Origin: Schmidtea nova
Lineage: Eukaryota
Length of the DNA: 64,000 nt
NCBI GenBank assembly: GCA_044892505.1
Contig: CM097884.1
Coordinates: forward strand, 135,284,001 to 135,348,000
Direction of reading: 5' to 3'
Part shown: positions 7,941 to 49,640 of the stretch, one piece after another
Position numbering within the stretch: position 1 is the stretch's first letter
Layout: every line of letters begins with the position of its first letter
Notes under the pieces: generated by a model
Told to the model about the DNA's origin: nothing
The model's input: the letters and a program-made list of their open reading frames with translations, nothing else
The model's database searches: none
Made by a program: the position numbers and the translations under genes

Positions 7941-9937
7941 ATGCCCATTTTGTCCCTTCTTCATCGGTTTAACTACGGTTACTCATTTTAAATCAGCACA
8001 ATAAAATAATTACACCAATAAAAATTAATTAATTTGTCCCAATTAATCATTATACACGGTATTATCCTAAGACACAAGAATTTTCGCGCATTCATTTTGT
8101 TTGCAAGCTCATACTCAAACATATCTTCGCAACTCAACTCGGGGGATAAGATATTCCTTCAAAAAAATGCATATAGTCGATGATATTCAATAGTCATTAT
8201 TTTTATCTAAACGGTTATTATTTTCTGAATTTTTCTCAATTACTATGCTTTTAATATTCCTTATTCAAGCTAACTTTATTCATACCCTAATCCTATTGTC
8301 TATCTTGCTTTATAATTATATTAAAGATTTTATTAAAAATTTAACCTTTAGATTTTTAAAATTTTACGGAGTAACGGCTTTGATTCAGTAAAACTTTCCC
8401 CTTATAATTTAGTCATCAAATTTTAGTTTTTTAACATGATATAATAATTTAATTCTAGTTTAAAATTCCCTGTAAATTTAAAGTGAATTTGGTAAAAGAA
8501 ATTTAATGAAAATATTTAATGAAAAAAATTTAATTAACCGTGTTTAAAATAACAATAAATTTTTTGACTCTTACAAATATATAAATAATCACAACCTGAT
8601 CGGTTGTTTTATTTTGCAGTCACATTTTATGCTTTATACTATCAAATATCGATCGTATTTTTCGATTAAAATTCACAATGGATAACCGTGGTTTAACTTT
8701 TCACCCAGTAAATTTTGTAATTTAAATCATTTTATTTTTGATGACTTTATTTAGTGTTGGGCCCGCTAAGTGGTCTAAACCACCAAAATAACAATACAAT
8801 AAAACAAAAAATAAAAATAATAAATACAAAAAACATAGAAAAATCAGAATTAAAAATCTGAATAAAATAATAAAAAATAAGAAATAAATTAACAGCGGAG
8901 AAAATTCAAAATTTACATTAGAACAAGCAGCAAGGGGGCCTGAAACAGGAAAATAAAGAATTAAATCAAAATTAAAGTGCAATTAATTGATTAATTACTT
9001 TGAAAATCAGTACCACCCAGCGAGAAACCTGAACCGGAAATAAAATAATATTTACAATAGAATAAAATAATAGACAGGCTTTGATGGACGGCCTGATCCT
9101 GATTGGTCAATCTGACCAACCGGATCAGTATAAATACCGATCCGAAAATCACAAATTAGAGCATATTTTTGAGACTTAGACTTTGTGTCAAAGCATTAAA
9201 TTTTACGAGTACTTAGTTTAGAGAAAGCCTTAGTATAGATTCAGAACTTCTGTTTAATATAGAAACCTTATCAGCAACAGTTATTAATTTTCATCGGTAT
9301 GGAGCAGTAAATTTTGTTTTTATTTTTATTATCATATATGTACCCATGATATTGTTGTTCATATAAATTTTAATTTCATGTTATTTTAAATCTTAATGCT
9401 TATCATTTATAATTTTATATTTCATGTGCATAGATATGCTTCCTCGACTGCTCACGCGGCGAGGGAGCCAGAGTCGTCATCGTGGAGCTTAACGGGGATA
9501 GATGAATTTATTAATAAAAAGTCAATAAATTTAAGATATGACAATGCGTACGGTCAAAGTCCGTTTTTCGATTTTCTCGGTTACGACGAACAATATATCG
9601 TCAACTTAACCAAATTCAACTTCATCGGCAAATGACATTTGTAATTGACACACAAACCGATTCAGATCAAATTCCTGATCGCTCTAGACAGCGTCGGAAT
9701 TCAATTAAAAAATATTATTTTTAAGTTATCCTAATCGCTGTAAATAGCGCAGGAATTTACCTAACGATTTATTGTTTGGTATCTACCCTGGTCGCCGTAT
9801 ATAGTGCAGGGATAAGTAAATAAATTAAACATATAAAGCTATTCCGATCGTGGTACATCACGACGGAGATACTCATAAATTTTGTTTTAAATCACATTTA
9901 AAAGGTAAATTATAAATTATATTTTGACATAACACAG

Positions 9938-10417
9938 ATGTCTGAGGAACCAATAACCCGAATGATAGTAGATTGTAGACGGTCGTTGGAGGCATGGAAA
10001 TTGGAAAACAAGGCCGGGAAGCTAAAGGACTTACCCTCGCCAATCATACGAACAATAAACGCACTCATGTATCGATGGCTTCGAAACTTCGGAAGGAGGT
10101 GCCCATTTTTTATTTGGGCTGATGACAACGATTTCATTCTATATCGGGATGGCCCTGGATGGCCAGAGTCTAATCAAACCTACTCTCCGAAGTTCGGACG
10201 ACTATTAATTATTATAAGAGATGCCGACGGGAAACCCAGTCAAGTGATATATTGGGGGCACATTCCCCGAGACGAGCTTCATAAATTAGGACTCCACGCA
10301 TTTGTCCCACCACGATCATTCGGGAAGGAATGCACTACCACTCAACCCAATTTCTCACTAGCGAGGCTACGTCAAGCGGCTATAAATCAGGAGATTCACA
10401 TTTTATTCCGAGTGTAG
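9938..10417 (+). CDS. LTR ORF1 homolog, unknown function (159 aa)
   Basis: DLPSPIIRTINALMYRWLRNF vs DVPTSIIQQARRHLRLWIRRY; RDADGKPSQVI vs NDAGQPRWIL; ELHKLG vs EFFKLG. Confidence 0.6.
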   Translation: MSEEPITRMIVDCRRSLEAWKLENKAGKLKDLPSPIIRTINALMYRWLRNFGRRCPFFIWADDNDFILYRDGPGWPESNQTYSPKFGRLLIIIRDADGKPSQVIYWGHIPRDELHKLGLHAFVPPRSFGKECTTTQPNFSLARLRQAAINQEIHILFRV

Positions 10418-10571
10418 AGAATAAACATTTCTATTTAATCAAATTGTGTTAATAATAAAAGTTCCATCAAATCTGACTTAATTACCGGGGTTGAATTTTC
10501 ATGTTGAATTAAATAACTATTCTTAAATCATAAGTACAATAAAGAAATTTCACTTCATCACGCTTGTAAAA

Positions 10572-11228
10572 ATGAGTTCGGAGTCGCTACAACACCAAAA
10601 AGAAATAAATAAATTGTGGAGGATTCGACGAGCTCAGGACAAGGAATTAGCTCAAACGAAAGAACAACTGGTCAAAGCGGAGGCCCAGATAGCTTACCTG
10701 CACAAGAGTTGGTTTGCTCCTGCGCGGATGAAGGATCAAATCTGTAAAACCGAGCGGGCTCAGAGGACAGCGGAGGATTACAAAATGGAGTGGGAGGCAA
10801 CCAAGATTGAGTTGCGAAAATGCCTCCACTCAGTAACGGCCTCATACATCGAGCGGTAACTCAAAGCGCAAATCAGGCCGGTGACCTATTAGGGGTGGAT
10901 CACCGAGAAAAAATCAGCAATCTCAATCGGTACTGATGTCGAAGATCTAACTGAAACTACGGAAAAAGAATCTCAACCAGTTATTGTGAGTGCTCCCTCA
11001 ATCGGCGCGCACCAAAAACGCAAACGGATCGGCGAGAAGCGAACTAGACAGAGGAAACTCTTCGCCCAAAGACTACAAGATCAGGTCGACGAGTTAACTA
11101 AGTTATTGGAAGGAGAAATGCTGAACGAGATTTTTCCTCCAGAGGGGATTTTCAGCCATGTTGTAATAATAAATGAGACTATCATTCGTGCTGACATTTT
11201 TGTTATGTCTCAGTGTAAAAGTTACTAA
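10572..11228 (+). pseudogene. LTR ORF2 homolog with two in-frame stops
   Basis: Track ORFs 10572-10859 and 10986-11228 are in one frame; WFAPARMKDQI vs WFSPERVKSIL; basic KRKRIGEKRTRQRK vs RRNRLGAKKRRERR. Confidence 0.7.
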
Positions 11229-11809
11229 TCGATAAAATAAATAAAAAATAATCCTCGTAAATCACATAAGTTTTCGAGTCAAATAATTCATTCATAAGGA
11301 TATTAGTATTCATAAATAAATAAATAGAACACAGCATAGCTTTGCGAAAGTAAATAATGAACATTAGAAATTCTAACAGATGACATCATTCACGAATGAA
11401 GCGTAAGCCCTTCTAACGGCAGCAATGAACCCGTAAACATAAATGGGGAGTAGTTCTAGAGATAGAGCTCACCTGCCCATCATTGTTTAACCACCTTGCG
11501 CATCACCAACTTGGTTATCAAGGGAAATAATCAAGGGCGCTGAATGTGAATTTACGAATATTTATGTATGATCATGGATGGGGAATCCCTAGCCACCATT
11601 AGAATTTTTCATCTAACCGCTCCATGAACCCAGCATTAGTTAGGATTTGTATAGCACTATGGTGTTCAATGACGAGAGTAGACACATTGAGGTATTCATA
11701 GTCAACAAATATTATCGAACGGGTGATAATAAAAACCGGGTCAACACATATTAAGAGAAAGGAAATTAACCTTTCTGGTATAAGTGTCGGTCAATCAAAA
11801 ACAAACATC

Positions 11810-13640: not shown

Positions 13641-13643
13641 ATA

Positions 13644-16160: not shown

Positions 16161-17421
16161 TGTTGAGCCAGGCAAATCAACAATCATCTAAAAATAGCAT
16201 AGAATTAATAAAATAAATTTACATAAAAACAACAATAAAATAAATTACTGTCATCAAATAGTCGGCAATACGCGGCAGAATCTAAAAGTAACAAAAGAAT
16301 AAATCAACATAGATAACAATAAGAACTCACCCATGCGGAATACAAATAATCTGAAAATCTGACAGGGCGTGGGCAGACATCACCAAGAATCTAAAATAAA
16401 ACAAATATTAACAAAGGATTCACGCATGATTAAACAAACAACTTACTGAATTGAATTACACAGAAAAACCGACGATCATAAATGATTAGCAATAAATGCA
16501 CACATGCTCGATTCTGATTGGCCGGCCAGCAACACCATTTAGTATAAATACTGAAGCAAAATCAGTATGAGAGTCACTTTTTACCAAGTCATTTTTTACC
16601 GAGTAAAAATTTTGGTAGAGTTACTCTTACCAGAAGCATACTTGATCAGAATAACCTTGTAATCAAGAAGACGTTTACGAAATAAAGGTATGTCGGTTAT
16701 TGTTTTCATTATTATCTTTAATGTAAACCCTCATAATACTAAAATCCATAAGGTTCTGTCCCGAAGATCTAGCGATTTGGCGGGATTCTCGGCCTCTCGG
16801 CACAACATATTTTCATATGAGGTGCTGATGCGGCGAGACCCTAGGTTTGCTAAAATTGATTGTTGATCGGGAAAGGGGGTGCACCTGGGATGTCGAGAGT
16901 CGTCTGATGGATCGTACTTCAGCTAGAAGGGATACGACGGATAATACCTGATAAACACAAAAGAACTGAGGACAGTGAATTAATGTAACAGAATATACTA
17001 TTACATGGAGAACTAGGAGAACTATGGGTCACCGAGTCTCGAAATAACATCGCCCGATGGATCATGATCCTTGTTAGTATGTATACGAAAAATGATGACA
17101 TGAATCTGACAGAGATGTGTGTGAAACAAAATTGAATGTTGCTGTAAATGAAACTTTACTGTACGTATGTTAATAGTAACGAGCGATGAGCATCATCGAT
17201 CACTTATAAAATTATGAAGTATGATAAGGTTATGCTGAACTACCACGCTCGAGAGAGTGTCCAAAATTGCTAATATGGTTCATTGAATAAAATCAACGAA
17301 CAGCTGATCATTCAATAACACCGGCCTACTCAAGTTTGGACCAAAAATTAGCGTAGGAAAACCAATAATAAAACTACGTGCACTAAATCGTATTCTCACA
17401 TGCCAACTATTATTCAGAGAA

Positions 17422-18062
17422 TTGAAGCGAGAACCGACCACCAAATCCATATTGAAACAAACATCCACTAGCGATAAAAATCGGGATACGCAAAGAAAGA
17501 ACCAGGAGAGAACCGCGCGGAGATCGCGAGCTAGTGCCTCGAGGGTAAGGCTCCAAGGAATCGCAGATGTCCCCACGTCAATTATTCAACAGGCGCGTAG
17601 ACACCTTCGTCTATGGATCCGACGATACACCAACATCGCCTCCAAGGTGCCATCCTGTTCCTTTCCAATACAACTGCGGTGGGAAGGAGATTCGAAGTGG
17701 CCAATAGCCGCGGATCGATCGCACAGACGTCCCCGAACTGGTTCCTACAGATGACCAACGATGCGGGTCAACCCCGATGGATTTTATGTGATGCCACGAT
17801 AACAGGTCCAGAATTCTTCAAGCTTGGTTACCTACTCATGGATAGGCCTCAGTGTAGCGACACTGGGGAAATCCAACCCTACCGACATGCACCCAGAAGT
17901 ATGACATCGGAACAGAACCCGAAACCGGACGAGCTCAGACTATGGGAGGTATTCACCTACCAGGACAAACTCGTTTGGGATCCATGCCTGGAACTCTATT
18001 TACCAGATGGCAGAAGGCGAGCGGATCGACGTCTCGACCAAGAGATTCGACCATTCTTCTGA
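17422..18062 (+). pseudogene. LTR ORF1 homolog with one frameshift near 17730
   Basis: First frame gives ARRHLRLW...IQLRWEGD, second gives WFLQ...LRLWEVFTYQDKLVWDP; joined they are collinear with 22655-23290. Confidence 0.8.
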
Positions 18063-18282
18063 GAAGGAGTGATTGTGACCACGATCCGATGTAGATGAAA
18101 TTAACAATAAAAATGTTCATTAGTTCTTCTTATGATGACTTGACTGTATGTGAATGACTGAGTATGAAGGAATGATGTGAGAAAGTTAGGTAGTGTGTAG
18201 TAATCTAAATTTTCGAAGAGTGAAGGGAAGTGCGAATTCATAGTAGAATCATAATTCGAGTTACTGATATAATTTATTAGAG

Positions 18283-18843
18283 ATGAGCCTCAATAATATT
18301 TGCAACTACAAAAAAGAAGCCAAGGAGCATAGATCCCGTATTAAAGTGTTGGAAAGTAGATTGCGACAATTAACCGATGAACACCAGCGAGTAAAAACCA
18401 CCTGGTTCAATCCAGAACGGGTGAAGTCCATCTTACAAGCCCGATATAGAGCAGAAAGAATCGTCGAAGAACAGACGAGAGAAGTGGCAGCGGTAAAGTT
18501 AGAACTACACAACTACCTGAAAGCCACCACTCAGGAGTTCATCACCCAACAATTGCGCCCATTGATCCGGGTTAGCACGTTCAACCGATGGGTGGATACG
18601 GTTGCTACGACGACAAGTACCCAGACGGAAATTGAATCCGGTACTACGACAACCACTCCAGAGATTATATCGCCATCAGAAGGTTCAAAAAAAACCAAGC
18701 GCCGAAATCGCCTCGGGGCGAAAAGACGTCGCGAGCGTAAGGCTTACGCGGAAAGAATTGGTATTGAGGTAGATTTGCTGAGTGGTTTAACGGAACGACA
18801 ACTGTTAGAGGTGATAAATCCCTCAGTGTTGTTAAATGAATAA
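18283..18843 (+). CDS. LTR ORF2 homolog (186 aa; coiled coil, TSTQTE, Arg/Lys-rich motif)
   Basis: Intact and clearly homologous to 23440-24039 along its length. Confidence 0.8.
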   Translation: MSLNNICNYKKEAKEHRSRIKVLESRLRQLTDEHQRVKTTWFNPERVKSILQARYRAERIVEEQTREVAAVKLELHNYLKATTQEFITQQLRPLIRVSTFNRWVDTVATTTSTQTEIESGTTTTTPEIISPSEGSKKTKRRNRLGAKRRRERKAYAERIGIEVDLLSGLTERQLLEVINPSVLLNE

Positions 18844-19240
18844 TAAATGTATATTAGTCAGCTGAATTGATTTGATTGACTGTGGAATGATTGCGACAAC
18901 ATAAAAATAAATGAAATGAAACCGATTCATTTTATGCTACAGATACCCCGAAATCGAATTTACCGTAGAAAGAATAAATGGAGCGCATGAAATGGGGACC
19001 GAAATAAATCCACATAAACCTTCTATCGGTAGTGGTGGACCCGTGAATAAACAAGGGAATATTAGCCGCAAGGTTGCTCACCTGCCTTGTCATTTCATAA
19101 CGTTGACACAGTACCAACATGATGAGTAGTTAGGGATACATCATGGGTGTCAGCGGGGAGATTATTTTTATGTTGGCGAGATCACCCTAACGCATAAACT
19201 CAAAATGATCTCAGTTGAATGTCTAACCAACACACCAGCA

Positions 19241-21140: not shown

Positions 21141-21514
21141 TGTTGGGCTAGCCAGATCGAGCAGCATCTGGAAATAATATACAATCAATAAAATAAATTT
21201 ACAACAGAATAACAACAAAATAAATTACCAACACCAAAGCGTAACAAATAAGCGGCAACATCTAAAAGAAATAACATATTAACCAAAACAGCAAAAATCT
21301 TCAAAACTCACTCATGCGAAGCAGAAAAAATTGGAATATGACAGCGCGTGGGCGGATGTCACCAAAGACCTAAAAACAAAAATAAAATAAAATAAATTGA
21401 TGACTAAGAAAAACTTACCGCATGATTAACCAAACAAATCGGCAAGTTAAGTTAGGCAGCAAAAAGCCGACAACATGAAAAAATGAAGCAAACATACACA
21501 CATACTCGATGCTG

Positions 21515-21547
21515 ATTGGCTAACCAACAACACCGGTTCAGTATAAA
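21515..21547 (+). promoter_or_regulatory. Putative LTR promoter: inverted CCAAT (ATTGG) plus TATAAA
   Basis: Both motifs and their 26-27 nt spacing are conserved in three diverged LTRs (9102/9129, 16517/16543, 21515/21542). Confidence 0.7.
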
Positions 21548-22654
21548 TACTGAAGTCAAATCAGTATTTGACAATGCCATTTTTTACCAAGTGTAACTTG
21601 CAGTTGAGTACTGAGAACATTGTAAAACCAACTTGAAGGAAAATAAAAGGTAATTGTTGTGTGTTAGATTGTTTCTTTAAACCCTCATAATTATGATTGT
21701 TAACCATATTAAAATCAATAAGGTTTTCCGGAGGCCTAACAGCCTGACGGATTCTTGGGGCCTCTCAGCGCAACACAATCTTTCGGTTGTGAGGTGCTGA
21801 TGCGGCGGGACCATAGGTGTTCTAAATATTTAACAAGCGGAAGGGGGAAGGGCACATCGGATATCTCATGCCATCGTAACCTCAGTAGGGGTAGAAGCAA
21901 TTGAAGGACGTATCATCTGTCACGACAACATCGAGTACCTTGGTTTACGTAAAAGACGTGTTGATAGACACAAAGTGTCCAGCGTTCGTGAAGTCAAGTA
22001 GAGTAACGACAACTTTGTGCAGAGGGTAAGTATCATGATAAATTGAGCACTGACGATGATAGAGCTATACAACGCATGAGCCATGTGAGTCAGAGACCGA
22101 CAGTGCTAGGGTCAGAGGTAAACCATGAATCCACAGGATATCCCAACATATATGTACGCCTCTCGAAGGGTACGAAGGATAGACCCACGAAATGTAATGC
22201 AAGTACAATCTATACCCAATTAACCTGAATAAGGGGTCGATCGTGTTCCCCGGATGATGTGATTCTTGATAGTTGAACCTGAGGTATGGAGATAACACCT
22301 GAGGAGTGATTGAGCATGATTGTTGTAAAAAATAAACCAAAATGGTCTCTGAAATGATGATAGTCAAACATAATAAATGGTCAAGTAATCATCGTAGATA
22401 AAAACAGACTGTCATAAACGGCACTGAATTATGCGTGGCCAAATCATATAAGTAAATTGATATAGCGAATACACTCACCCGCAATGACAATAACATACAT
22501 CCTACATAATATCTTGAACGTCGGACCGGTTCAACACTGAACCACCAACTGCAACCTACAGAGTTTCACCCTTGAGTCGAGTAGGTCAACGGTTATAAAT
22601 AATTGCGCGCACCCGACAAATTCATCACAATAACATATTCTTGTCTTCAGCAAT

Positions 22655-23290
22655 ATGATAAAGACCGAAGAATACCAAAGAAGTCTGAGCACCTCTCGAC
22701 AGATGAAAGTGGAAGATTATGTCGTCCGGAAACCGCGACGCATCCGTTCCGTCGTCCGGCCAAGGAGGATCCCTACCATCGATGGAGAAATGGAAGCCCC
22801 ACGCAGAATTAGCGAAACTGCGCGTCGACATCTACGTCGGTGGACAAGACACCATATGAGTGCAGCCGCAGGTATTCCGGCTTGCACCTTCACGATACAA
22901 TTACGATGGGAAGGAGACCCCGATTGGATGTCCACCATGGACCCTGCCGAACCAAGGACCGATAGGTGGTTCTTCCAATTCCTCGACGGACAGAGACGAC
23001 CCCGCTGGGTGTTGAGCAATGAAATGATGACGGGAAGGGCTCTATTTCAATTAGGGTACATGCTGCTAGACAGGCCTCGGTGTCGCTACACTGAGGAAGT
23101 CTTCGCTTATTCCAACGCACCAGGAAGTGTTTCCGTGGAACAACACCCCGAGCCCAAGGAGCTTCGCCTCTGGGAGGTGTTTATCTACAAAGATAAGCTG
23201 AGTTGGGACCCAGCCCCAGAAATGTATTGGGAGAATGGAATTCGCCGCGACGAGCATCCTGCCGATCAGGAATTGAGGACATTCAGTTGA
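22655..23290 (+). CDS. LTR-encoded ORF1, unknown function (211 aa)
   Basis: Intact in both LTRs; protein-level homologs in both solo LTRs; preceded by acceptor-like TTCTTGTCTTCAG. Confidence 0.75.
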   Translation: MIKTEEYQRSLSTSRQMKVEDYVVRKPRRIRSVVRPRRIPTIDGEMEAPRRISETARRHLRRWTRHHMSAAAGIPACTFTIQLRWEGDPDWMSTMDPAEPRTDRWFFQFLDGQRRPRWVLSNEMMTGRALFQLGYMLLDRPRCRYTEEVFAYSNAPGSVSVEQHPEPKELRLWEVFIYKDKLSWDPAPEMYWENGIRRDEHPADQELRTFS

Positions 23291-23439
23291 TTGATGCAGC
23301 CGAGAAAGAATGATTGTCTTAGATATAGAAATATATGTATTGGAGTGCGACGGTCTTGTTTTGTTTTGAGTGCATGAGAACAACCTAAGGATAAGGTAGA
23401 GTTGTGTAATGACGATAGGATGACCGAAAGATCAGACAC

Positions 23440-24039
23440 ATGACATATACTGCCATTAATGATATATTTACAGACATGACGGAAACCAAGGGCAGAGATT
23501 TCAAGCAAGAGGCGCGAGAACACAAGGCGCGCTCACGAGTCCTGGAGAGTCGATTAAGGCAGCTGAATGAGGAGCATCAGCGGGTTAAAACGACATGGTT
23601 TAGCCCAGAGCGGGTTAAGTCCATCCTGCAGGCTAGATACAGGGCGGAACGAGTAGCTGAGGAACATGCCAGAGAGATTGCAGCCCTGAAGCTGGAGTTG
23701 GCGAATTATTTGAAGGTGTCGACTCGAGACTTCATCACCGAACAATTGCGCCCCGTGATCCGAGCGAGCACCTTTAATCGATGGATAGATACGATAGCGG
23801 TAACTACGAGTACCCAAACAGAAACCGATACCATCGCAACCACGACGATCGAATCAACAACGAAAACTCCAGCCGGTTCAAAACGAACGAAGAGGAGGAA
23901 TCGCTTAGGAGCGAAAAAGCGCAGGGAAAGACGCGCATATGCAGATCGCGTAGGAATAGAGGTAGACTTGCTCAGTGGTCTATCTGAGCAAGAACTACTA
24001 AATGTAATTCGACCCTCTGTATTGGTGAACTATAAATAA
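23440..24039 (+). CDS. LTR-encoded ORF2 (199 aa; coiled coil, TQT motif, Arg-rich basic patch); start may be Met13 at 23476
   Basis: Intact in both LTRs; homologs at 18283 and 10572; AATAAA at the stop. Confidence 0.8.
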   Translation: MTYTAINDIFTDMTETKGRDFKQEAREHKARSRVLESRLRQLNEEHQRVKTTWFSPERVKSILQARYRAERVAEEHAREIAALKLELANYLKVSTRDFITEQLRPVIRASTFNRWIDTIAVTTSTQTETDTIATTTIESTTKTPAGSKRTKRRNRLGAKKRRERRAYADRVGIEVDLLSGLSEQELLNVIRPSVLVNYK

Positions 24040-24429
24040 ATGTATATAAATGAATGACTTGATTTACCTTGTTTGTTTGATGCATGTATAAGAAGTAAAA
24101 GTAACAAAAACCCTGGTTCATTTAAATTGCAGATATCTAAAAAGTAAATTACCCTAGAGCAAAGTAAGGAGCATAAGTGGGACCGAAAGAAAGCCACAGA
24201 CACCTTCTATCGGTAGTGGTGGACCCGTGAATAAACAAGGGAATAGTAGCCGAAAGGTTGCTCACCTGCCTTGTCATTTCACAACGTTGACACAGCACCA
24301 ACATGATGAGTAGTTAGGGATACATCATGGGTGTCAGCGGGGGAATGTTTTTATGTTGGCGAGATCACCCTAACATATAAAATCATAATGATCTCAGTTG
24401 TCAATCTAACCAACACACCAGCATAAATT

Positions 24430-24981: not shown

Positions 24982-25440
24982 ATGGAGAACAAAATAAAAG
25001 AAATGCAAACGTTTTTCGAGACAAATAACGAGACAATGGAGATAATAATGAGAAAGTTAAGACGACTCGAGGTAGGAGGATATCACAAACCGACAAACAA
25101 CACAGAAAGAGCTGAAACAATGATGAGCATAAGCGAGAATAAGATAACAGTGGATACAGCAACACGATATCAGTGGTATAGAGAGCGCTTAAACAACCCT
25201 GAAATGAATATCGAGTGCCACAGGCTAGAACAACAGATTGCAACAAAACACGATGAGTGGAAAAGAACGACAACCGAATATACGAGACAGTATCTGACGT
25301 GTTACATCTGTGAAATAAACAAAATACAGATAATGTTGTTGCCGTGTGGGCATTTTCGATTCTGTAATGACTGTAAAATAAATGAACGATGTCCTATGTG
25401 CAACCTTCCCGTATCCGAGAAAATAACAGTGTACTTGTAA
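24982..25440 (+). CDS. IAP-type C3HC4 RING finger protein without BIR (152 aa)
   Basis: C-terminal CYICEINKIQIMLLPCGHFRFCNDC...CPMC...KITVYL; AATAAA just after the stop. Confidence 0.8.
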   Translation: MENKIKEMQTFFETNNETMEIIMRKLRRLEVGGYHKPTNNTERAETMMSISENKITVDTATRYQWYRERLNNPEMNIECHRLEQQIATKHDEWKRTTTEYTRQYLTCYICEINKIQIMLLPCGHFRFCNDCKINERCPMCNLPVSEKITVYL

Positions 25441-28405: not shown

Positions 28406-29551
28406 ATGAGTGATCACAGAGAGGATCTAAGAGAAAAATTCAAGGGCGAACCATTTAATGGAGACGCCAGTAGATTGGACACGTTTCTGAAGGAATTTGG
28501 CATATTCGTGGATATATGCGGATGGAGTGCAGAAACGTTAGCGAATCGAATCCCGCTATACTTGAAAGATAGCGCATTGGATCTGTATATTGAAAAGAGA
28601 TCTGGAAGTAATCCACCCAGAACGTGGGAAGCGATCAAGGAGTTCTTCCAACAGACGTTTGGGATAAACAAAGTGCTGAATGAAGCATTCGATGAGTTCT
28701 CAGCAAGAAAACAAAGGAGAAATGAGTCAAATGCGGTGTACGCAAGCGAATTAAGAAAGTTGGCGAAACTGGCATTCAACAGAGGAAGCCCAGTAGACGA
28801 AGAATTGATGACAGCGTTATTCGTACGAGGTCTCAGGAGACCTGACATCAGAGCACAAGTGGGATGCAAGGGATGTAAAACAGTAGATGAAGCGTTGGAA
28901 GCAGCCAACCTATTCGAATTGCATATGGCAATGAATGACATGAGAATTACGGCGGTAATGGGAAAAACGACAGAAGATGAAGAACAAGGAAAAAGAAACA
29001 TGAATCAGAGTATTCCCCATTCACAGAGATTGTTCAAAGAACCGCCAGCGAGGAAGAATAACGGATATATCACGGTGAACACGAATGGAGGAAATAGTTA
29101 CAATGACAGGCAGAATAGGCAATGTCAGACGTGTGGGAAAAACGGACATTGGCAACAAGAGTGTTTCCAGAATGTAGCCTGTAAACTGTGTGGACAAAAA
29201 GGTCACTCAGAAAATCGATGTTATGGGAAAACGTGTTACACATGTGGAAAAACCGGACACATGTCAAGAGACTGTAATCAACAGAGAAGTTGGTCAAACA
29301 GTGGAAATAGACCGAATTACGGGAATCGACCAAGCTATGGGAATCAAGGTCAACAACGGAACAACCCAAACAGCAGTGCAAACGAAGCTAGTATGAAAGA
29401 AGCTAAGTTGAGACAGGAGGTATCCAGATTACACGAGATAATCGAAAGCATGGCAAAGGGAAGCCAACAAGCTGCTCAACCAAAGATAAACATGATCCAG
29501 TTAATAGAAGCTGAGGCCGAAAGAGAAAACAGAGAGTCAACAGAAACATAA
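28406..29551 (+). CDS. gag: Gag (retrotransposon capsid domain plus three CCHC zinc knuckles)
   Basis: FNGD...LKDSAL..Y...W..IK..F..TFG capsid pattern; CQTCGKNGHWQQEC, CKLCGQKGHSENRC, CYTCGKTGHMSRDC. Confidence 0.93.
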   Translation: MSDHREDLREKFKGEPFNGDASRLDTFLKEFGIFVDICGWSAETLANRIPLYLKDSALDLYIEKRSGSNPPRTWEAIKEFFQQTFGINKVLNEAFDEFSARKQRRNESNAVYASELRKLAKLAFNRGSPVDEELMTALFVRGLRRPDIRAQVGCKGCKTVDEALEAANLFELHMAMNDMRITAVMGKTTEDEEQGKRNMNQSIPHSQRLFKEPPARKNNGYITVNTNGGNSYNDRQNRQCQTCGKNGHWQQECFQNVACKLCGQKGHSENRCYGKTCYTCGKTGHMSRDCNQQRSWSNSGNRPNYGNRPSYGNQGQQRNNPNSSANEASMKEAKLRQEVSRLHEIIESMAKGSQQAAQPKINMIQLIEAEAERENRESTET

Positions 29552-29639
29552 TCAAGAATGGGCTAGAGTACGACGAGAAGAAGAACAAGTCAGGCAACAA
29601 CGATTACAACAGTTAAAAAAGGGAAATCCAAGGATCAAC

Positions 29640-32600
29640 ATGATGCGAGCAATGATGGAAGAGAAGCAGCAGGATGAGTCAGACGAGTTAGAAGTTAAAG
29701 AGAAAAGAAACGAAGAGCAGAAACAAGAAGAAGTGAGTCAGGAAGTAGAAACTACAGAGCAGAATCAAAAAGTGGAAGAAGTAGAAAAAGAAACAGAAAC
29801 AGAAAAAGAAACAGGAAAAGAAACGAATCAAGAAGAGGGAGTGAGAATCAAACAAAGAGGAATGTTGGTGATCATGCCGAATGATCACGTATTTCGATTC
29901 AAATACGATGTAAAAGAAGAAGTAGGAAGATTGTTCAATAAAGTAAATGAGATGATTCCGGGAGTGACGAAACTGCCCAGAGAAGCATTCCTACAAACAG
30001 AGGATCTACCAGAAGTGAAGTTAAAGATGACTGATATATGGGAAGATATGGGAGTAACGGAGACGAAAATAAACGTGATGATCATCAGAGAGGTGGAACC
30101 GGAGAAAATCCCACCACCAGTGAAACATCAAACTCGGATCAGTCGAATATTCAAAGGAAAAATAAGACGAAGACGGTTGGAAGAAATAGAGGAGTTGGAG
30201 AAAAGAATGGGAAAAGCTGAAATAACGGGAAACGAGAATGAACTAATACAGGAAGTTAGCAAAAACGAAGCGAGACCAACCGCGCATATTGGGATGCTGA
30301 GACACCCAAGACAAGAGTTGTCAGATGAAGAAGATGACAGCGAAGTTAGCAGTCTGGCAGGAGACATGCTAAAGGAACCGGAAAACGAGGATAAAAAGAT
30401 GGAAGTAGTCGAGACGATAGAAATGATGTCAGTAAAGGAAGAGGAAATTCAGAAGCTGATGGATAACGCGTTGGAAGTAATCCATAACGAGGAGTTTATC
30501 GACGGGAAACGATATAGAAAGTTTATACGAGCAGTATGGCAGATGAAGTATAAAGAGTGGTTACAAGAAAGAGAAGTGAGGGTAATACAAGAATTCATAG
30601 AGAAGTTATTGAAAGAACCACTGAACGAATACGTAATACAAATATGGATAAACGAGTGTTCACCGAGAATCTGGATAAGGAACCCAATGACGGATGGAAT
30701 ATATCGATGGGTTGAGGACAGATTGGGAAGCTCGTACAAAGACAAGTTCATATACTCAGGAAACGGATTGGTGAGAAAAGGAACGCATATGATAGACACA
30801 GGCATATGGCCAGGAGAAATAACGACGTTATCAATATGCAACACCAAAAAGGAAGAGAACTTACAAGGAATCGTCAAAGAAGCGAATACGTGTTACGAGA
30901 TGAGAATAAAACCTCAGTTGGTAGAGGCAAAAGAAAGAATCTTGGCGGAGAATTTGAATACGATGATAGAACAGATCATCCAACAAATCAAGAAACATCG
31001 AAAGGAATTGACGAAAAACGAGTATGAGAATTTGAAACAGTGTATCGAGAACATACGAGATACAAGTCAAACGAGACATTCAAATTTCAAAACAGACAAG
31101 CTAATTGCAAAGATGGGAAAAGAAATGTTTAAAAGAGGAGAGGTATCAGACCTGAAGATTACCGTGAGATTGCCGAACGAGGAGACAAGACAAATTGAAG
31201 TAATACCAGATAGTAAAGTGGGAGAAATAGTAGAGGTCATCAATGAGACGATATTACAACGAGAACGAGAAGACGAATTCGAAGATGACATTGCGATAAA
31301 ATACAAAGAACATCTACTGAACGAACGTGACGAAAGACGAGCGTATAAAATCGGCATATGGGACAATTTCCAGACAATACACGTCATCAGAATGGATGAT
31401 GTGCCAAGAGCAACACCAAGAGATGAGGAAAGGAAAAAGAAACGACAAGAGGACGTTATGCGCAAGTTGAGGCAGATAGTAGAAATCTATCGGAACTGGC
31501 AGATGAAGCCAGAATGGGAGACAATATTGGGGGAATTGGATCTTAACCGACGACGATTGACGCCAGTAGAGAAGCAATGGGATAACAAAGAGAAACGTTG
31601 GAAAGTGAAAAGAGGCGTATATGAAGAAGATCCGGAGGGAGAAGACAGATACGAAACGAATACAAAACGGATATGTATGGTAACAAGGAGAATATTACCA
31701 ACGGACTTAGACGGACCAGAAACTGCAGTAATATGGGCAGAATTGGAGAAACAGAAAACGAGTGAATTGATCGAGCTGTTGAGAGGAAATACTCGGGGAA
31801 AAAGACAAACAAAAAAAGGCTTAGCACAATTCATAATCTCAAATGGAGAAGACATAACGAACTTGAGAAAAGTAGCTAAAGCGATAGCAGAATACAAGAG
31901 AGTTAACGAGTGGTGTCCAGAGCAACTAGACGAGGTAATAAAAAAGTGGAGAAACAAAGAGTTTACGGAGGAAACGCCACAGAAAATACATTTGAGGATA
32001 ATGTATCCGAATCAGAGAAAAGAAGAGTTTTGGGTGATGCTAACAGAAAAAGTGAAGAGTGTTAAAGAGAAGCTGATGTATGAACTACCATTCCACCTGC
32101 AACATCAAGGACGATCGTTGGATAACAATTTGGAAATCTGGCTGACACCAGTACAATTGGATCTAATGAATACGCTAACAGTGGCACAGATAGTGGGTCA
32201 ACCACTGAAGTTTAAAGAGGAAAAGAAAGCGAAAGGAAGCATGAGTACACCAAGTCCGATGAAGTCAACAACGACCCCAGGAACAAGTTCGGGACAAGCA
32301 AGGACAACACCAATCAAAACGAGAGAAAGAACACCGCCAGAAGCGTATGACGTCGATGAGATACTAACAGACAGTGACGAAGCGATAGAAGAATTAACGA
32401 AACTGACTCAAAAACCAACGGCGAACATTTTTGACAGAATAATAGAGATGCCAATAACGTCACCAGCAGAAATCGACGATCAAGGAGTGGAACAGGAGGT
32501 AGTCATAGAAATGGTAAACGATTCGGAAGACGAACAAGAACAACCACAGTTTACTCAAGAAATGGAAAGATGGTTAGAACAGCGAGCGAACGAAGGAAGA

Positions 32601-35600
32601 GATGTTACAGAAGAAACCGGAAGAGCAGCGAGATTTGTAGAAACCGGAACTGGAATGGAAAAACGACCAAGAGGGAGACCAAAGATAGATCTAGCAACAA
32701 CAATTCCAAAGACAAGAGAAGAAAGGAGACAAGAGCAATGGGAGATTTGCTTGAAGAAACTAGACAAAATCGCAGAAATCAGAGGAAAAGAGGAGAATCA
32801 AGTTTGTCAAGGAGAAGAATGGCTCACCAAAACGATAATGGATGTACTAGCAATAATTGACCCAGACTTAAAGAATTTGTGGCGAATAAACGAACCTAGT
32901 ACAAAGGCAAAAATGCTACACAATGCAATAGCACCGATTATGCCAGAATTGATAAAGGCAAAAACAAAATCGAATCATCTAGATTGGCAAGGAACCACGA
33001 TGTTGATAAAAGGGCTACTTAACGGAGCAGAGACGGATAGCAAATATCTAGTAGCAATCTCGTATACGATATACAATTTGTTAACGCTAAGCCGAGGGAG
33101 TCCGAAGTCAAGTCCGATGGGAAGACATATTAAAAATACGGCGATGATTATCGAGAAAGAAATTGAACCATATATCCTCAGAAAAGGAGGATGGGAGAAG
33201 TTCATAAAAGAGAACCAGACGAAAGAAGGCTCTAACGTGATGAGAAAGAAACTCGAAGGAGTATTGAGAGAAATGGAGAATAGACAAACGATGCAAGGAA
33301 ACGGAAGATCGACGTTGAATCTAAACTCGATAATCATGATGATGCTAGTATGGTTGTTAAGCACAGAAGGTGTAACAACGTTCGAAGTATTTGATTGTGA
33401 TCAAATGAAGTTAGGAGAAAAGTACTCATTGAGAGGTACGGAGCAATGCAAAGATGCAACTCCAGTAGAGTTAAAAGAGATTAAAAAAGAACAATGGTAC
33501 CACGTGTATCAAGAGGCAGAACTAATAAAGACAATGGTGAATGAATGCAAGGTACAGAAGACGAGATTCGCATTCTATTGTGGGAGAGGACATTATTCAG
33601 CAATTGTCATGCCAGGAACAGAAAGAGAACCAATCGTATTGCAAGGGGAAGACTGCGAAGCATTATTTAAACATGGAGAAGTAACAACGAGAGATAAAAT
33701 CAAGATAAAAGGAAAACCAGGAATGATGTTACAGCAGACATATTACGTAGCAGGACGAATTACGGGAGGAGAAGGATATTGTCAAGGAGAAACCTACCCA
33801 ATATTTGGAGTACCTGCAACCAACTTAGTGGTAATGGATACGTACATAGTCGAACTGAAAAGTTACGAAGCATTCTTCGAACCAACAACAGGAGAAATGA
33901 AAACGTTATCCATGTGTAAAATTGACAGGAGTATGTGTCAAACGGGAATGTCAACTTTGGTGTACAAACCGAAAGTGAACGAATGTCAATTACAACTGCT
34001 ACAAGGAGCAAAGTTCGACGAAATTCAAGGAAAAACGTTCCAAGAGGAGGACGATGACGACAAAGCTAGAGCAAAACATCTCAAAGAAGCTTTAGAAAAT
34101 AAAAGACAACTGAAATCAGAGCAGAGAGAGAAACGGATAGAGATGAGAACCACACCAACAGTGTTGATAACCACAAATCAGGATGTGGGCATGAGATTCA
34201 TAAAAGGGAAAGCAACCCTTAAGTGCAGTACAACAGTATACGAAACAAACTATCCAGGAATATATGTGTCAAAGCAAGAAGTACCGAATGCGAAACCCAA
34301 GATCGACACAATGGATATCAAGCTACACTTGTATGTGAATAATAAAATGGATTTCTTATTCCATAGAGGACAAGCCTCATTGCAAAAAGTGTACTATGAT
34401 CTGATAAACAACGATTGTATACTGAATCGAGAAATATTGAAGACAAAGTTGGCCGTAGCGATTACGAATCCAGATAGCGCGATGCCATTATTACCACTGA
34501 GAGAAGGACATTTCGGAAGAGTGGTCGGAGAAGCAATGTACGTATACATTTGCGAAAAGACACACGCATCGCTAGCAGCAACAACGCAGTTGAAACCTGG
34601 ACAATGTACAAACGAACTAGAAATCGATTATAAAGGAAAAGTACGATATGTTCAACCGGTGACGAGAATCATCAATCCACCAGGGTTTGAACCAAATCCA
34701 TTCAACTGTAGTAATGCGTACGGACCGCTTTATCAGAAGCCAGATGGCAAATGGGTTATGTTCCCAGGAAGAACCGAAGTATTAGCACCAAGAGAATTTG
34801 AACTGATGCAGTTGTCAAAAGATAGACAGTTCAGTGACGTAGATGTCTCAAACAACGGAATCTATAGTCCAAAGGATCTAGAAGCAGCAAGGCAGAATAT
34901 ACTATTTCCGGCAAGAAGAGAAGCATTACTGTCAAATATCGTAACGATAACGGGAGGAACGAATTATCGAGAAGGACCGAATTACGAACTGCTGTTGTCA
35001 CCGGCACATTTCAAGAAAGCCACAGAAAATATGATGAAGGCAATGTGGGGAAGATTCCTGATATTTGGACAAATGATGGCTGGAATACTGGGGGTTATAC
35101 TGATAATACAAATCGTCAGAGTGATAATAACGCAAATGTTAGCGTGTTTCGATATCTACAAGAGAGAAAAGAAAGTGAATTGGAAAATGGTAGTAGGGTT
35201 TTTACCATTCCTTGCGAAAACGATGGTGTTACACGGACACTCAAAAGACATACATCGAATAAAGAGGTTGTTGAAGATACTTGCAAAAATGAGAGGAACA
35301 AATGAAGATGTCGGAAGGAAATTCAAAAAGATAATGCAAGATGAACAAGCAAGACGACAACTGAAGAAGGAAAGGAAAGGATTATGGGAAAGAGTGAAGG
35401 GATATCGAACACAAGATGATTCAAGCAACGACGACGATGACGATGACGATCAAGGAGGACAAGCGAATATAAACCAGATTCCACAGTATAACGAAAAGAG
35501 TGCAGTTGAGAATTGGAGATACAGTGCTCCACCTCAGTCAATGTATAACGAACCGATATACAAAGCGAAGCCGAATATGATGCAGATGATGCCGATGACA

Positions 35601-38600
35601 AGTATATACCCGATAATTCCAGAAGACTGCAAAGTAAAACGAGGCGGAAGCGTAAACTCGTTAGAAGACACGCATACGATAGCGGTTATGTCCACAAATA
35701 TGGGACCGATTTTAACAACAACTGTAGAAATAAACGGAAGAGAAATTGAAGCTATGATCGATACAGGCGCGAATATTTCGGCGATCGACATTAATCATAT
35801 ACCAGAGAAAAATCAAGGAGAAATCGAGAAGACGAATGTTCATGTAATCGCGTGCAGTCAAGAGACAGTAGAAGTAGCCGGAAGATGGTTTGTAAAAATT
35901 AAGCATCGAGGTGCAGAAATCAACACGTACATCGCTGTAATACCATCGCTGAGTGTACCATGTATTATTGGAACTGACCTGATGCCAGACCTGTTCAAGG
36001 AAATCGTAATTGATCTAGGAGCAATGAAGCTGAAAGATAGAACAGGAAAAATCTGCAGAATGAAAGTTAAAGTGGCAAGTGCAGGACAAATAGTAGTGCC
36101 AGCGAGGCACGAAATGATGTGCTATGTCAAGATCGATTCGACAATAAAGGGAGACATGATATTCGAACCAAGTAAGAAGTTCGAAGCGAAGAAGGAATTA
36201 CAAATGGCAAGAGAATTGGTCACGATAAACCAAGAAGGAGAAATACCGATTAATCTGGTAAACTTCGACGAAGAGGACAAGATAATATACGAGAATGAGA
36301 ATTTGGGTAAATTAACACCCATGTCCGAAATCGAAATACCAGATAAGAATGAGAAAAGCAAAGACGAGTTACCATGGAAAATCGACAGTGTGTTGTTAGA
36401 CGAACGACAAAAAGAACAGTTACAGAAACTGTTGATGGAATATAAAGATATATTCGCAGCATCAGATTTAGATCTGGGAACATGTGATGTAACATTACAC
36501 ACGATACCGTTGACGGACGAAACGCCAATCGTATTACGACCATACAAACTGGCAGAAGCTCAAAAAGCAGTGGCAGAAGAAGAGGTACAAAAGATGTTAG
36601 ATGCAGAGGTCATCGAACCTAGTTGCTCACCCTGGCAATTCCCGGTGGTGATGGTGAAAAAGAAGGATGGAACTCAAAGATTCTGTATCGATTACAGACG
36701 ATTAAATGCCGTTACGAAAAGAGATACGTACCCACTGCCAGACATAAATGAAATGTTGTTGACGTTACAAGGAGCAGCCTATTTCACGTCACTGGATTTA
36801 AAGAGCGGATATTGGCAGATCAAAATGAAAGACGAGGATAAAGAGAAGACAGCATTTACAATCGGACGAGATCTGTACCAATTCAAGAAAATGCCGTTTG
36901 GGTTAACAAACGCGCCAGCATCATTCCAGAGATGCATGAATTTCGTAACACATGGCATAAAACAATGCATGGTGTATATCGACGATCTATTGATCTACTC
37001 CGCAACATTCGAAGACCACTTGCAAGACATCAGAAATGTGTTCGTGAAATTAAGGCAATGGAAGCTGAAATTGAAGCCGTCAAAGTGCGATTGGGCAAAA
37101 GATAAAGTGACATTCTTAGGTCACATTGTATCAGCAAAAGGAAAAGAACCAGATCCAAGAAATATCGAGAAAGTTAAAGAATGTCCACCACCCAAGACAG
37201 TAACTCAAATACAAGAATTTTTGGGATTGTGTGGATATTATCGAAAGTTTATCAAGGACTATGCAGGAATATCAAAGCCAATGCAAGAATTAGTAAGACA
37301 AGACGTGTCGTTTGTGTGGGGAGCAGAACAGCAAGCAGCATTTGAGACATTACGAGACAAGCTGATTACAGCGCCAATATTAGTCCATCCAGATTTTAAG
37401 AAGCCATTTCTGTTGGCAACAGACGCAAGTGGATACGCAGCAGGAGCAGTACTAGGCCAATTCGATGAAGAAGGCAAAGAGAGAGTAATTGGGTACTACA
37501 GTCGAACATTCAGGAAACATGAAAAGAATTACTCAGTCACGGAAAGAGAAGCCTATGCGATAATATTGGCAATCAAGCATTTCAAATACCTGTTGTGGGG
37601 TCATGAAATATATATCACGACGGATCATCAACCATTGGTATGGTTAGGTCAACATAAAGAATCATCAAGTAGATTGATGCGTTGGGCGATGCAGTTGCAA
37701 GAATACTCGCCATTCATAAAGTTTAAAGCAGGAAAAGCAAACGCAAACGCGGATTGCATGTCAAGGTTTACATTTCCGGAATTGGTGAACCTAAATGCTC
37801 TAAAAATATGTGCATTAATAGCGGAGGATCTGGATTTCAGCGAATTAAGGAAAGATCAACTCGAAGATGAGGAGTTGGGATTGATCAGCAAGTATCTGAA
37901 AGAAAGGGAAATGGAGATATTCGGCAAGAACCAAACGTTACGCGAACATATGCAGAAATATCAGCACCGATATGTGATGGAAAAAGGATGGTTATTGATA
38001 CAAGATGGAGAACGAAGATTAATGTGCTTACCTGCGAATAGGCGAAAGGAAATCATGACTCAATATCATGACGGAAAATTAGGCGGACATATGTCAGCGA
38101 AAAAGACAATCGGGAGATTGAGACAAAAGTATTTTTGGCCAACCATGGAAGATGATGTGAAAGAATGGATAAAGAACTGCTTAACCTGTGCGACAAGAAA
38201 GAACGTCGGAACAAAGTGGAAAACACCACTAAAACCAATGCCAATACCTGCAGAACCGATGGCAACGATAGCAATGGACGTAGTTGGACCATTGCCGGAA
38301 AGCTTAAAGGGGAATCAGTATATCTTAGTAGTTACGGACTATCTAACAAAGTTCCCAGAAGCATTCGCAATACCAGATCAAAAAGCAAAAACAGTCGCGA
38401 GAATATTGGTAGAAGAGATATGCTGCAGATACGGAACACCCAAGAAAATCCTAACGGACCAAGGAACGAACTTCATGAGTGAAATATTAGACGAAGTCAC
38501 GAATTACTTCCGAATTGCGAAATTACGAACATCCCCATACCATCCGCAAACGAACGGTCAAACAGAAAGGTTCAATGGAACATTGATACGCATGTTGTCA

Positions 38601-49491: not shown

Positions 49492-49640
49492 TTGATGCAG
49501 CCGAGAAAGAATGATTGTCTTAGATATAGAAATATATGTATTGGAGTGCGACGGTCTTGTTTTGTTTTGAGTGCATGAGAACAACCTAAGGATAAGGTAG
49601 AGTTGTGTAATGACGATAGGATGACCGAAAGATCAGACAC

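What the first reader, a model, noticed from the sequence alone, without database searches (positions are those of the whole stretch)
22655..24039. Two protein-coding genes inside the LTR, conserved across three diverged LTR families
Seen: ORF1 and ORF2 occur in both LTRs and, in the same order, in solo LTRs 16161 and 8755. Protein similarity persists where the DNA has diverged, which implies selection. Solo LTRs therefore deposit a promoter plus two genes. Known precedents for coding in or overlapping an LTR are MMTV sag and HIV nef. Neither protein resembles anything I recognise.
Basis: partly seen in the sequence, partly recalled or inferred. Interest (0 to 1): 0.8.

Follow-up and report, generated by a model that had tools for sequence, protein, structure and literature searches.

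The report
Two spliced genes inside giant LTRs
A giant virus-like jumping gene, of a kind known from flatworms, carries two selected genes of unknown family inside its terminal repeats, each with its own splice site behind the repeat's promoter, so the many lone repeats left in the genome look like complete two-gene expression units.

Summary
The two genes are real. They lie in the 3,283-bp LTRs (21141-24423, 47342-50624) of a 29.5-kb Burro-like Gypsy element. Both are under purifying selection in three LTR families: omega 0.32-0.36 for ORF1 and 0.14-0.30 for ORF2, against 0.93-1.43 for non-coding LTR DNA.

New here: a conserved CCAAT/TATA promoter and a splice donor lie upstream, and each ORF has its own acceptor. 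Three independent genomic elements lack exactly the donor-to-ORF1 intron, a fossil of splicing. A poly(A) hexamer sits at the ORF2 stop.

Corrections: ORF2 probably starts at 23476. Each solo LTR in the window has one broken ORF. ORF1 of solo 8755 matches only by profile. The few changes made after insertion look neutral (14 nonsynonymous, 4 synonymous), so selection acts on the replicating element, not on solos.

Neither protein has a detectable homologue. ORF2 models as a coiled-coil dimer with a bZIP-like basic helix. Best reading: accessory regulators of a complex retroelement, swapped as a cassette between near-identical pol backbones. No RNA data were available, the R/U5 map is open, and two key Burro papers could not be read.

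The parts
21141..24423 (+). 5' LTR, 3,283 bp, TG..CA, of a 29,484-bp Burro-like Gypsy element
   Evidence: one mismatch to the 3' LTR, TSD AGAT
21515..21550 (+). Promoter: inverted CCAAT (ATTGG) and TATAAATA box at LTR nt 375/402
   Evidence: same motif and spacing in families A, B and C; function inferred
21642..21655 (+). Splice donor G|GT at 21649/21650, preceded in families A and B by an AATAAA hexamer
   Evidence: GT donor in 78 of 82 distinct contexts, 3 spliced, 1 off-target; family C has a GTAAAT donor-like site without the hexamer
21650..22650 (+). Intron 1 (donor to ORF1 acceptor), removed exactly in three independent genomic elements
   Evidence: L143, L236/L238, L239+L240
22655..23290 (+). 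LTR ORF1, 211 aa: Arg-rich N-terminus, then a small alpha/beta domain rich in conserved Trp, Pro and Gly; no homologue found
   Evidence: omega 0.344 in 73 copies; acceptor in 72 of 73; model pLDDT 63.5; no hits
23476..24039 (+). LTR ORF2, 187 aa from the spliced ATG (acceptor AG ends at 23473): coiled coil, TQT linker, basic helix with N-x7-R, short C-terminal helix
   Evidence: omega 0.143 in 71 copies, 0.125 in 57 copies picked through ORF1
24035..24075 (+). AATAAA overlapping the ORF2 stop with a T/G-rich tract downstream: candidate poly(A) site
   Evidence: 81 of 82 A, 27 of 30 B, 17 of 26 C; use not shown
24179..24423 (+). Highly conserved LTR 3' end shared between families (candidate U5)
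   Evidence: 93% A against B; p-distance 0.02-0.04; far higher DNA depth
24430..24447 (+). Primer-binding site, tRNA-Pro-like (label recalled from MLV, not tested)
24982..25440 (+). RING accessory ORF with a YAG just before its ATG
28406..43313 (+). gag (28406-29551) and a 4,557-aa env-like fusion/PR/RT/RH/IN/ankyrin frame (29640-43313); in this copy the two are separated by a frameshift
   Evidence: many other copies read as one frame of about 5,080 aa
43436..47140 (+). Four 3' accessory ORFs (116 aa; TRAF RING-zf-MATH 470 aa; coiled coil 386 aa; 174 aa), each with a YAG just before the ATG
47342..50624 (+). 3' LTR with identical ORF1 (48856-49491) and ORF2 (49677-50240)
16161..19240 (+). Family-B solo LTR: ORF1 frameshifted near 17739; ORF2 (18283-18843) open, 70% identical
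8755..11636 (+). Family-C solo LTR: ORF1 (9938-10417) open and a remote homologue; ORF2 (from 10572) with two in-frame stops

Best explanation
ORF1 and ORF2 are accessory genes of a Burro-like 'complex' LTR retroelement. The promoter at LTR nt ~400 starts an RNA with a short first exon. Its donor is spliced to an acceptor directly before ORF1 (shown by fossil spliced copies), or before ORF2 and probably the five internal accessory ORFs (inferred from acceptor motifs). The short mRNAs probably end at the hexamer at the ORF2 stop (inferred). The proteins act in trans for the element and are selected only while it replicates. ORF2 is most likely a dimeric, basic, nucleic-acid-binding regulator of the element's own expression. 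Within this reading I put about 35% on a bZIP/Tas-like transactivator, 30% on a Rev/Rex-like factor that lets unspliced RNA accumulate or leave the nucleus, and 35% on something else. ORF1 evolves faster and is most likely a nuclear host-interaction factor such as an anti-silencing protein (weak inference, about 25%). The intron-ORF1-ORF2 block is exchanged between near-identical pol backbones by template switching at its two flanks.
For: Selection: omega 0.344/0.143 (A), 0.322/0.159 (B), 0.360/0.296 (C); likelihood-ratio 2dL 224-1479 against omega=1; shifted forward frames 1.4-2.9. Non-coding U3 and U5 read as codons give 0.93-1.43; sets picked through the other ORF give 0.353 and 0.125. Splicing: three elements with different first exons join the donor exactly to the ORF1 acceptor; unspliced relatives show AG|GT and CAG| at these points, and in one element both LTRs are spliced. 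A YAG precedes the ATG in 7 of 7 accessory ORFs against 22% of 648 ATGs, and not gag. Neutral after insertion: 14 nonsynonymous and 4 synonymous changes in 14 LTR pairs. Not needed in cis for the last round: 3 of the 9 elements behind loci L192-L205 share ORF deletions in both LTRs. ORF2 homodimer: score 0.53 against best control 0.00, parallel interface at residues 9-78, contacts agree at least 60% between runs, pLDDT 58-59. That mark was reached by 17 of 29 eukaryotic homodimers (animals 7 of 16; 1 of 7 without an older solved relative) and 0 of 30 monomers. Weak bZIP_1 matches in 8 of 10 A/B C-terminal fragments... see the Against line for the exact limits. Cassette: pol dS 0.15-0.21 with omega 0.03-0.06, while ORF dS reaches 1.0-1.3 in two of the same elements. 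LTR nt 725-2615 behave as one linked block (rho 0.79-0.91) with decoupled segments at nt 400-510 and 2900-3040.
Against: No RNA or protein evidence; the runs laid behave as DNA. No spliced copy at the ORF2 acceptor was found in family A (one pattern); one family-B deletion ends there but starts at GC and may be microhomology (L113). No processed poly(A)-tailed copy was found (0 of 17 places). The hexamer overlaps the stop codon, so coding may explain part of its conservation. The bZIP matches (E 0.0007-0.01, 16-20 bits) are below the 27.6-bit cut-off, absent from the window's own copy and from 0 of 3 family-C fragments; family C also lacks the Asn and the TQT motif (1 of 19). The modelled dimer is through the N-terminal coil, not a zipper behind the basic helix. 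The post-insertion test rests on 18 changes. The decoupled segments are indel-rich, so alignment error can mimic recombination.
Confidence: 0.7

Rival explanations
1. Same genes, different map: the ORFs lie in a very long U3 and are driven by an internal promoter, as with MMTV sag or the foamy accessory genes. The genomic RNA would start near LTR nt 2,900 and end at the second conserved AATAAA (nt 3,090). This makes the arrangement an ordinary retroviral one.
For: Intron loss in both LTRs would also follow from splicing in a 3' U3. A second AATAAA about 190-210 nt past the ORF2 stop is conserved (79 of 82 A, 22 of 30 B). A TATA-like word follows the ORF2 stop in family A. A donor-like GTAAAG lies after the PBS in 26 of 29 listed rows. 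The segment at nt 2900-3040 is decoupled. Strong-stop DNA would be of usual length (recalled).
Against: The only CCAAT+TATA pair seen in all three families is at nt 350-400. The TATA-like word at nt 2,903 is not kept in the family-B copies printed. The TATA-to-donor segment is the most shuffled and unlinked part of the LTR, as expected at the site of strand transfer (inference).
Confidence: 0.3
2. Solo LTRs are maintained host genes: the host keeps ORF1 or ORF2 expression from solos, for example for superinfection resistance as with endogenous sag.
For: A complete expression unit lies inside the LTR. There are thousands of first-pass candidates (2,989 for ORF1, 9,436 for ORF2). 19 of 25 sampled solos have both frames open. 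Endogenous MMTV sag is a precedent (PMC11998498, passages).
Against: Changes after insertion are neutral in 14 LTR pairs. Omega is highest among the closest pairs. Both window solos have a broken ORF. Older families carry many stops.
Confidence: 0.1
3. The ORFs encode virion or trafficking components rather than regulators; ORF2 would be a coiled-coil adaptor that binds dynein light chain through its TQT motif.
For: TQT in 70 of 71 family-A and 24 of 30 family-B copies inside an otherwise variable linker, directly after a modelled coiled-coil dimer. The element has an env-like fusion protein. The LC8 motif label is recalled.
Against: Family C has IGTD in that place (16 of 19; TQT in 1 of 19). 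The basic helix is the part kept in all families. Binding to LC8 was not tested.
Confidence: 0.2
4. The frames are open by chance or by DNA-level constraint on the LTR.
For: No homologue in any protein library searched.
Against: Frame-specific omega of 0.14-0.36 with almost no stops, while all other frames hold 3-17 stops per sequence; neutral non-coding controls; conserved acceptor plus ATG.
Confidence: 0.01

Closest known systems
Burro / GYPSM1 giant Gypsy elements of dugesiid planarians (PMC6431247, section 7 read)
   Same: About 30 kb; gag with CCHC knuckles; mononegavirus-like fusion protein between gag and protease; PR-RT-RH-IN; ankyrin, MATH/TRAF and RING accessory domains; polyprotein of about 5,000 aa.
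   Different: TRAF is a separate downstream ORF here, and no BIR or BCL2 was found by Pfam. The text read mentions no genes in the LTR and no splicing; its figure was not visible, and Grohme 2018 and Lee 2026 were not held.
MMTV sag (PMC11998498, passages)
   Same: LTR-encoded accessory gene, present in every LTR copy, variable, recombining and discordant with the pol tree; spliced proviral copies are known in the same virus (rem intron).
   Different: One gene in U3 (position recalled), a membrane superantigen, kept by the host. Here there are two soluble-looking proteins downstream of the TATA box and donor, with no sequence likeness and no sign of selection after insertion.
Foamy virus LTR (PMC3694450, abstract)
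   Same: Major splice donor inside the LTR next to a poly(A) signal, where U1 binding suppresses 5' polyadenylation.
   Different: There the donor is upstream of the signal; here the hexamer ends 2 nt before the donor and is missing in family C. Foamy accessory genes lie before and into U3 (recalled).
Retroviral regulators Rev/Rex/Rem and viral bZIP proteins such as HBZ, Zta, Meq (recalled, except Rem in PMC11998498)
   Same: Small, basic, oligomeric proteins made from spliced RNAs of a complex retroelement.
   Different: No sequence match beyond a sub-threshold bZIP basic-region hit; dimerisation is modelled through an N-terminal coil; no export signal or response element was demonstrated.
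Plant Ogre elements (PMC6431247)
   Same: Very long LTRs and extra ORFs of unknown function.
   Different: Their extra ORFs are described in the internal region, not in the LTR.

Membership tests
Burro-like giant Gypsy | Total length about or above 30 kb with long LTRs | tested here: met
   29,484 bp, just under 30 kb; LTR 3,283 bp
Burro-like giant Gypsy | PR-RT-RH-IN order with retrotrans_gag and CCHC knuckles | tested here: met
Burro-like giant Gypsy | Mononegavirus-like fusion (env) domain in frame between gag and protease | tested here: met
   PF24664 at aa 1500-1841, E 8e-68, before the protease at aa 2027
Burro-like giant Gypsy | One gag-env-pol frame of about 4,900-5,100 aa | tested here: met
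   Met in the family: many copies read about 5,080 aa. This copy is frameshifted after gag.
Burro-like giant Gypsy | Ankyrin, MATH/TRAF and RING domains | tested here: met
   TRAF lies in a separate ORF after pol
Burro1 in particular | BIR (IAP) and BCL2-like domains | tested here: inconclusive
   No Pfam hit in the 15 ORFs scanned; no profile-profile search was run on the polyprotein
Burro1 in particular | Sequence identity to Burro1/GYPSM1 | not testable with these tools
   No reference sequence held
bZIP proteins (ORF2) | Basic region with N-x7-R | tested here: inconclusive
   NRLG.K.R in 69 of 71 A and 26 of 30 B, 0 of 19 C; bZIP_1 below the cut-off
bZIP proteins (ORF2) | Leucine zipper directly after the basic region forming the dimer | tested here: not met
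   Only about 20 residues of helix follow, broken at 168-170; the confident dimer interface is residues 9-78. Based on models only.
Rev/Rex-like export factors (ORF2) | Arg-rich RNA-binding motif, nuclear export signal and cognate response element | not testable with these tools
   An Arg-rich helix is present. No Rfam hit in 6500-26000; the LTR 3' end folds no better than shuffles (z -0.99).
U3-encoded accessory genes (sag/nef type) | ORF upstream of the genomic transcription start | tested here: inconclusive
   The ORFs are downstream of the conserved TATA and donor, but the start of the full-length RNA is unmapped

The most novel reading that the evidence does not exclude
The LTR is a self-contained two-gene operon-like unit with a repeat region of about 2.5 kb (promoter, intron, ORF1, ORF2, poly(A) site). 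Thousands of solo LTRs therefore supply, in trans, allelic versions of an unknown dimeric nucleic-acid-binding regulator and a fast-evolving host-interaction protein. These would control or license the giant elements and be shuffled between pol backbones as specificity cassettes.
Probability: 0.2. Interest if true: 0.85.

Novelty: new variant of a known kind. Interest (0 to 1): 0.62.

Why it matters
Burro-type elements are large, abundant and, per a citing paper (PMC13465017), functionally tied to planarian stem-cell survival, yet their gene regulation is not described in what I could read. This locus gives two selected protein families with no detectable homologue and a testable splicing programme like that of a complex retrovirus in an invertebrate Gypsy element. 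It also means LTR sequence masked as repeat in these genomes may be a large source of coding transcripts. If the ORFs lie in R or U5, it would be an LTR layout for which my searches found no precedent, requiring about 2.8 kb of strong-stop DNA.

Tried and rejected
Homology. No hits in Pfam for window ORF1 or ORF2; in the 5.8-billion-protein set, near lengths only (0 of 196 and 0 of 184 candidates); in 1.84 billion representatives with the ORF2 profile (ORF1 was not run there); in PDB sequences (best E 0.5); or in the ESM Atlas (best 0.80, chance level). ORF1 fold search: best Z 4.0 among 48,161 chains and no viral match below E 0.4, on a model of pLDDT 63.5, which is inconclusive. The ORF2 model was not fold-searched. 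ORF2 is unrelated to the coiled-coil ORF at 45382.

RNA. No RNA holder was listed. The four runs laid showed flank coverage and no GT..AG joints among those listed, so I treat them as DNA. No Rfam family; no unusual folding of the LTR 3' end.

Junctions. Two exact junction patterns found nothing. The exon-end pattern gave 35 matches against 42 for its control; 31 were inspected, 2 were spliced LTRs and 4 were not inspected. The poly(A)-tail pattern gave 17 places, all from another repeat.

Family context. Stretches fetched to place pol next to family-C LTRs showed none. The link rests on a shared pre-LTR sequence in 2 of 30 loci and a 46% homologue of ORF 45382 upstream of one of them.

Literature. 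Grohme 2018 and Lee 2026 were not held. Searches for LTR-internal ORFs and for Burro or GYPSM1 listed no description of these genes. No supplements were read. Earlier scan findings: none.

Full report
1. The element. Bases 21141-50624 are one LTR element of 29,484 bp. Its 3,283-bp LTRs differ at one base, end in TG..CA and are flanked by AGAT. A primer-binding site follows the 5' LTR (tRNA-Pro-like, label recalled). Inside lie a RING ORF, gag, a 4,557-aa frame with a Monjiviricetes-type fusion protein, protease, RT, RNase H, integrase and ankyrin repeats, and four 3' ORFs including a TRAF. This copy is frameshifted after gag; many others read as one frame of about 5,080 aa. The layout matches the Burro elements of dugesiid planarians (PMC6431247, section 7 read). 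Flanking GC of about 0.2-0.3 fits such a host; this is inference.

2. The observation. ORF1 (22655-23290) and ORF2 are in both LTRs. Solo 16161-19240 has an open ORF2 (70% identical) and a frameshifted ORF1 (39% and 50% in two frames). Solo 8755-11636 has an ORF2 homologue (score 191, shuffle maximum 72) broken by two stops, and an ORF1 that is not significant pairwise (59 of 2,000 shuffles) but aligns profile to profile (83%, E 8.5e-6). The genome holds 2,989 and 9,436 first-pass candidates for ORF1 and ORF2, of which 150 each were scored. Family C belongs to a related element: 2 of 30 loci have the same pre-LTR sequence as the 3' LTR here, and one has a 46% homologue of ORF 45382 upstream.

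3. Selection. I used copies with a near-full single-frame hit: 96 of 100 family-A loci for each ORF (73 and 71 distinct), 23 and 30 of 30 in B, 30 and 19 of 30 in C. Frameshifted copies were therefore dropped. Codon-model omega was 0.344/0.143 (A), 0.322/0.159 (B) and 0.360/0.296 (C), with 2dL of 224-1479 against omega=1. Shifted forward frames gave 1.4-2.9; the one reverse frame that shares third positions gave 0.26-0.50 but holds 3-10 stops per sequence. Non-coding U3 and U5 gave 0.93-1.43. To remove the bias of picking copies by protein similarity, ORF2 in 57 loci picked through ORF1 gave 0.125 and ORF1 in 13 loci picked through ORF2 gave 0.353. Pairwise counting agrees. In 14 5'/3' LTR pairs the changes made since insertion were 14 nonsynonymous and 4 synonymous, pN/pS 1.09. 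Selection thus works on replicating elements, though the count is small.

4. How they are expressed. An ATTGG and a TATAAATA box sit at LTR nt 375/402 in A, 357/383 in B and 348/375 in C. About 105 nt after the TATA lies a donor: GT in 78 of 82 distinct contexts. In A and B an AATAAA ends 2 nt before it; family C has a GTAAAT site without the hexamer. A YAG precedes the ORF1 ATG in 72 of 73 A and 28 of 30 C copies, and the ORF2 ATG in 73 of 73 A, 30 of 30 B and 25 of 28 C (window of 13 nt, family-B ORF1 not counted). This moves the ORF2 start to 23476. All 7 accessory ORFs of the element have a YAG within 7 nt of the ATG, against 22% of its 648 ATGs; gag does not.

5. Fossil splicing. Three elements lack exactly the 1-kb stretch from donor to ORF1 acceptor: solo L143, 3' LTR L236, and both LTRs of one element, L239/L240. 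Their first exons differ, so the events are independent, and unspliced relatives show the expected AG|GT and CAG| ends. They were found partly by targeted search, so 3 of 82 is not a frequency. Spliced proviruses are known in MMTV and HERV-H (PMC11998498, passages). No such copy was found for the ORF2 acceptor in family A, and L113 is ambiguous.

6. Where the RNA ends. An AATAAA overlaps or directly follows the ORF2 stop in 81 of 82 A, 27 of 30 B and 17 of 26 C segments, followed by a T/G-rich tract; a second lies about 200 nt further on. No processed copy was found. Three maps remain: a long R holding both ORFs (about 45%), a short R with ORFs in U5 and donor-controlled polyadenylation as in foamy viruses (PMC3694450, abstract; about 25%), or ORFs in U3 under an internal promoter (about 30%). 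In 58 family-A LTRs, nt 725-2615 co-vary (rho 0.79-0.91), while nt 400-510 and 2900-3040 are unlinked to the rest (rho 0.01-0.22). This fits strand transfer at both ends of a long R, but these segments are indel-rich and hard to align.

7. A swappable, trans-acting cassette. Against the window copy, pol has dS 0.15-0.21 and omega 0.03-0.06 in 12 elements. In 2 of the 6 where the LTR was paired up, ORF dS was 1.0-1.3. LTR cassettes older than the pol backbone are therefore exchanged. Three of the 9 elements behind loci L192-L205 have lost ORF1, with part or all of ORF2, from both LTRs, so the genes were not needed in cis for their last round.

8. The proteins. No homologue was found. ORF1 has an Arg-rich, poorly modelled N-terminus and a helix plus small sheet (pLDDT 63.5). 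ORF2 is helical (pLDDT 77.1, pTM 0.31): a coiled coil, a Thr-rich linker with TQT (70 of 71 A, 24 of 30 B, 1 of 19 C), and a basic helix with N-x7-R (69 of 71, 26 of 30, 0 of 19). bZIP_1 matches weakly, below its cut-off, in 4 of 20 whole proteins and in 8 of 10 A/B and 0 of 3 C fragments. A homodimer scored 0.53 against a best control of 0.00, through residues 9-78, with at least 60% contact agreement and pLDDT 58-59. The mark was reached by 21 of 30 microbial and 17 of 29 eukaryotic homodimers and by 0 of 23 and 0 of 30 monomers; the model supports binding but does not show it. An element with one donor, seven acceptors and a 26-kb unspliced RNA needs regulation of the kind complex retroviruses have. 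A dimeric basic protein made from the first spliced mRNAs fits that role; this step is inference.

9. Novelty. LTR-encoded accessory genes, donors inside LTRs and spliced proviruses each have precedents. Two selected orphan genes behind the LTR promoter of an invertebrate Gypsy element, each with its own acceptor, were not described in anything my searches listed. I saw PMC6431247 as passages and section 7; PMC13465017, PMC8532177, PMC11410931 and PMC11998498 as passages; PMC3694450 as abstract and outline; and nothing of Grohme 2018 or Lee 2026, whose figures or supplements may already mark these ORFs. Verdict: a real feature and a new variant of a known kind; interest 0.62.

Noticed in passing
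window 24982-25440 and 43436-47140: All five internal accessory ORFs (RING, 116 aa, TRAF, coiled coil, 174 aa) have an acceptor-like YAG just before the ATG, suggesting a splicing programme with many acceptors.
   Followed up: partly
window 29640-43313: The polyprotein continues about 1,500 aa past integrase, with ankyrin repeats and what look like repeated hydrophobic or membrane segments; an env-like fusion domain precedes the protease.
   Followed up: no
window 43877-45289: Complete TRAF-like gene (RING, zinc fingers, MATH) in one open frame inside the element, probably captured from the host.
   Followed up: no
window 24179-24423, 6833-7081 and 50207-50547: The LTR 3' end is far more conserved than the rest and about 30-50 times deeper than internal regions in DNA runs; a separate fragment of it lies at 6833-7081. 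It may be shared by many more families.
   Followed up: partly
window 21706-21826 and 16736-16854: A stretch early in the intron is conserved between families A and B and looks structured by eye; no Rfam hit.
   Followed up: partly
window 26130-26740 and 27140-27540: Tandem repeat arrays (19-nt unit and others) in the leader between the RING ORF and gag.
   Followed up: no
L195/L196, L199/L200, L204/L205: Elements whose two LTRs share deletions of the ORFs; at least one junction has a short direct repeat, as expected from template switching.
   Followed up: partly
hits at 94% RT identity: A sister family with frames of about 5,140 aa, the length reported for the Burro-like ORF of another planarian in PMC6431247.
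   Followed up: no
window 12921-13640, 19283-20356 (minus strand): Short minus-strand ORFs between the solo LTRs without Pfam families; probably remains of other elements.
   Followed up: no
L132, L146, L157, L195, L065, L070: Several LTRs sit in (AT)n or (AAT)n microsatellites, hinting at a target preference.
   Followed up: no
window 53652-54440 and 61561-62639: Tandem arrays with 263-nt and 28-nt units outside the element.
   Followed up: no
L264-L280: An unrelated repeat family ending in an A-rich tract, 17 near-identical places.
   Followed up: no
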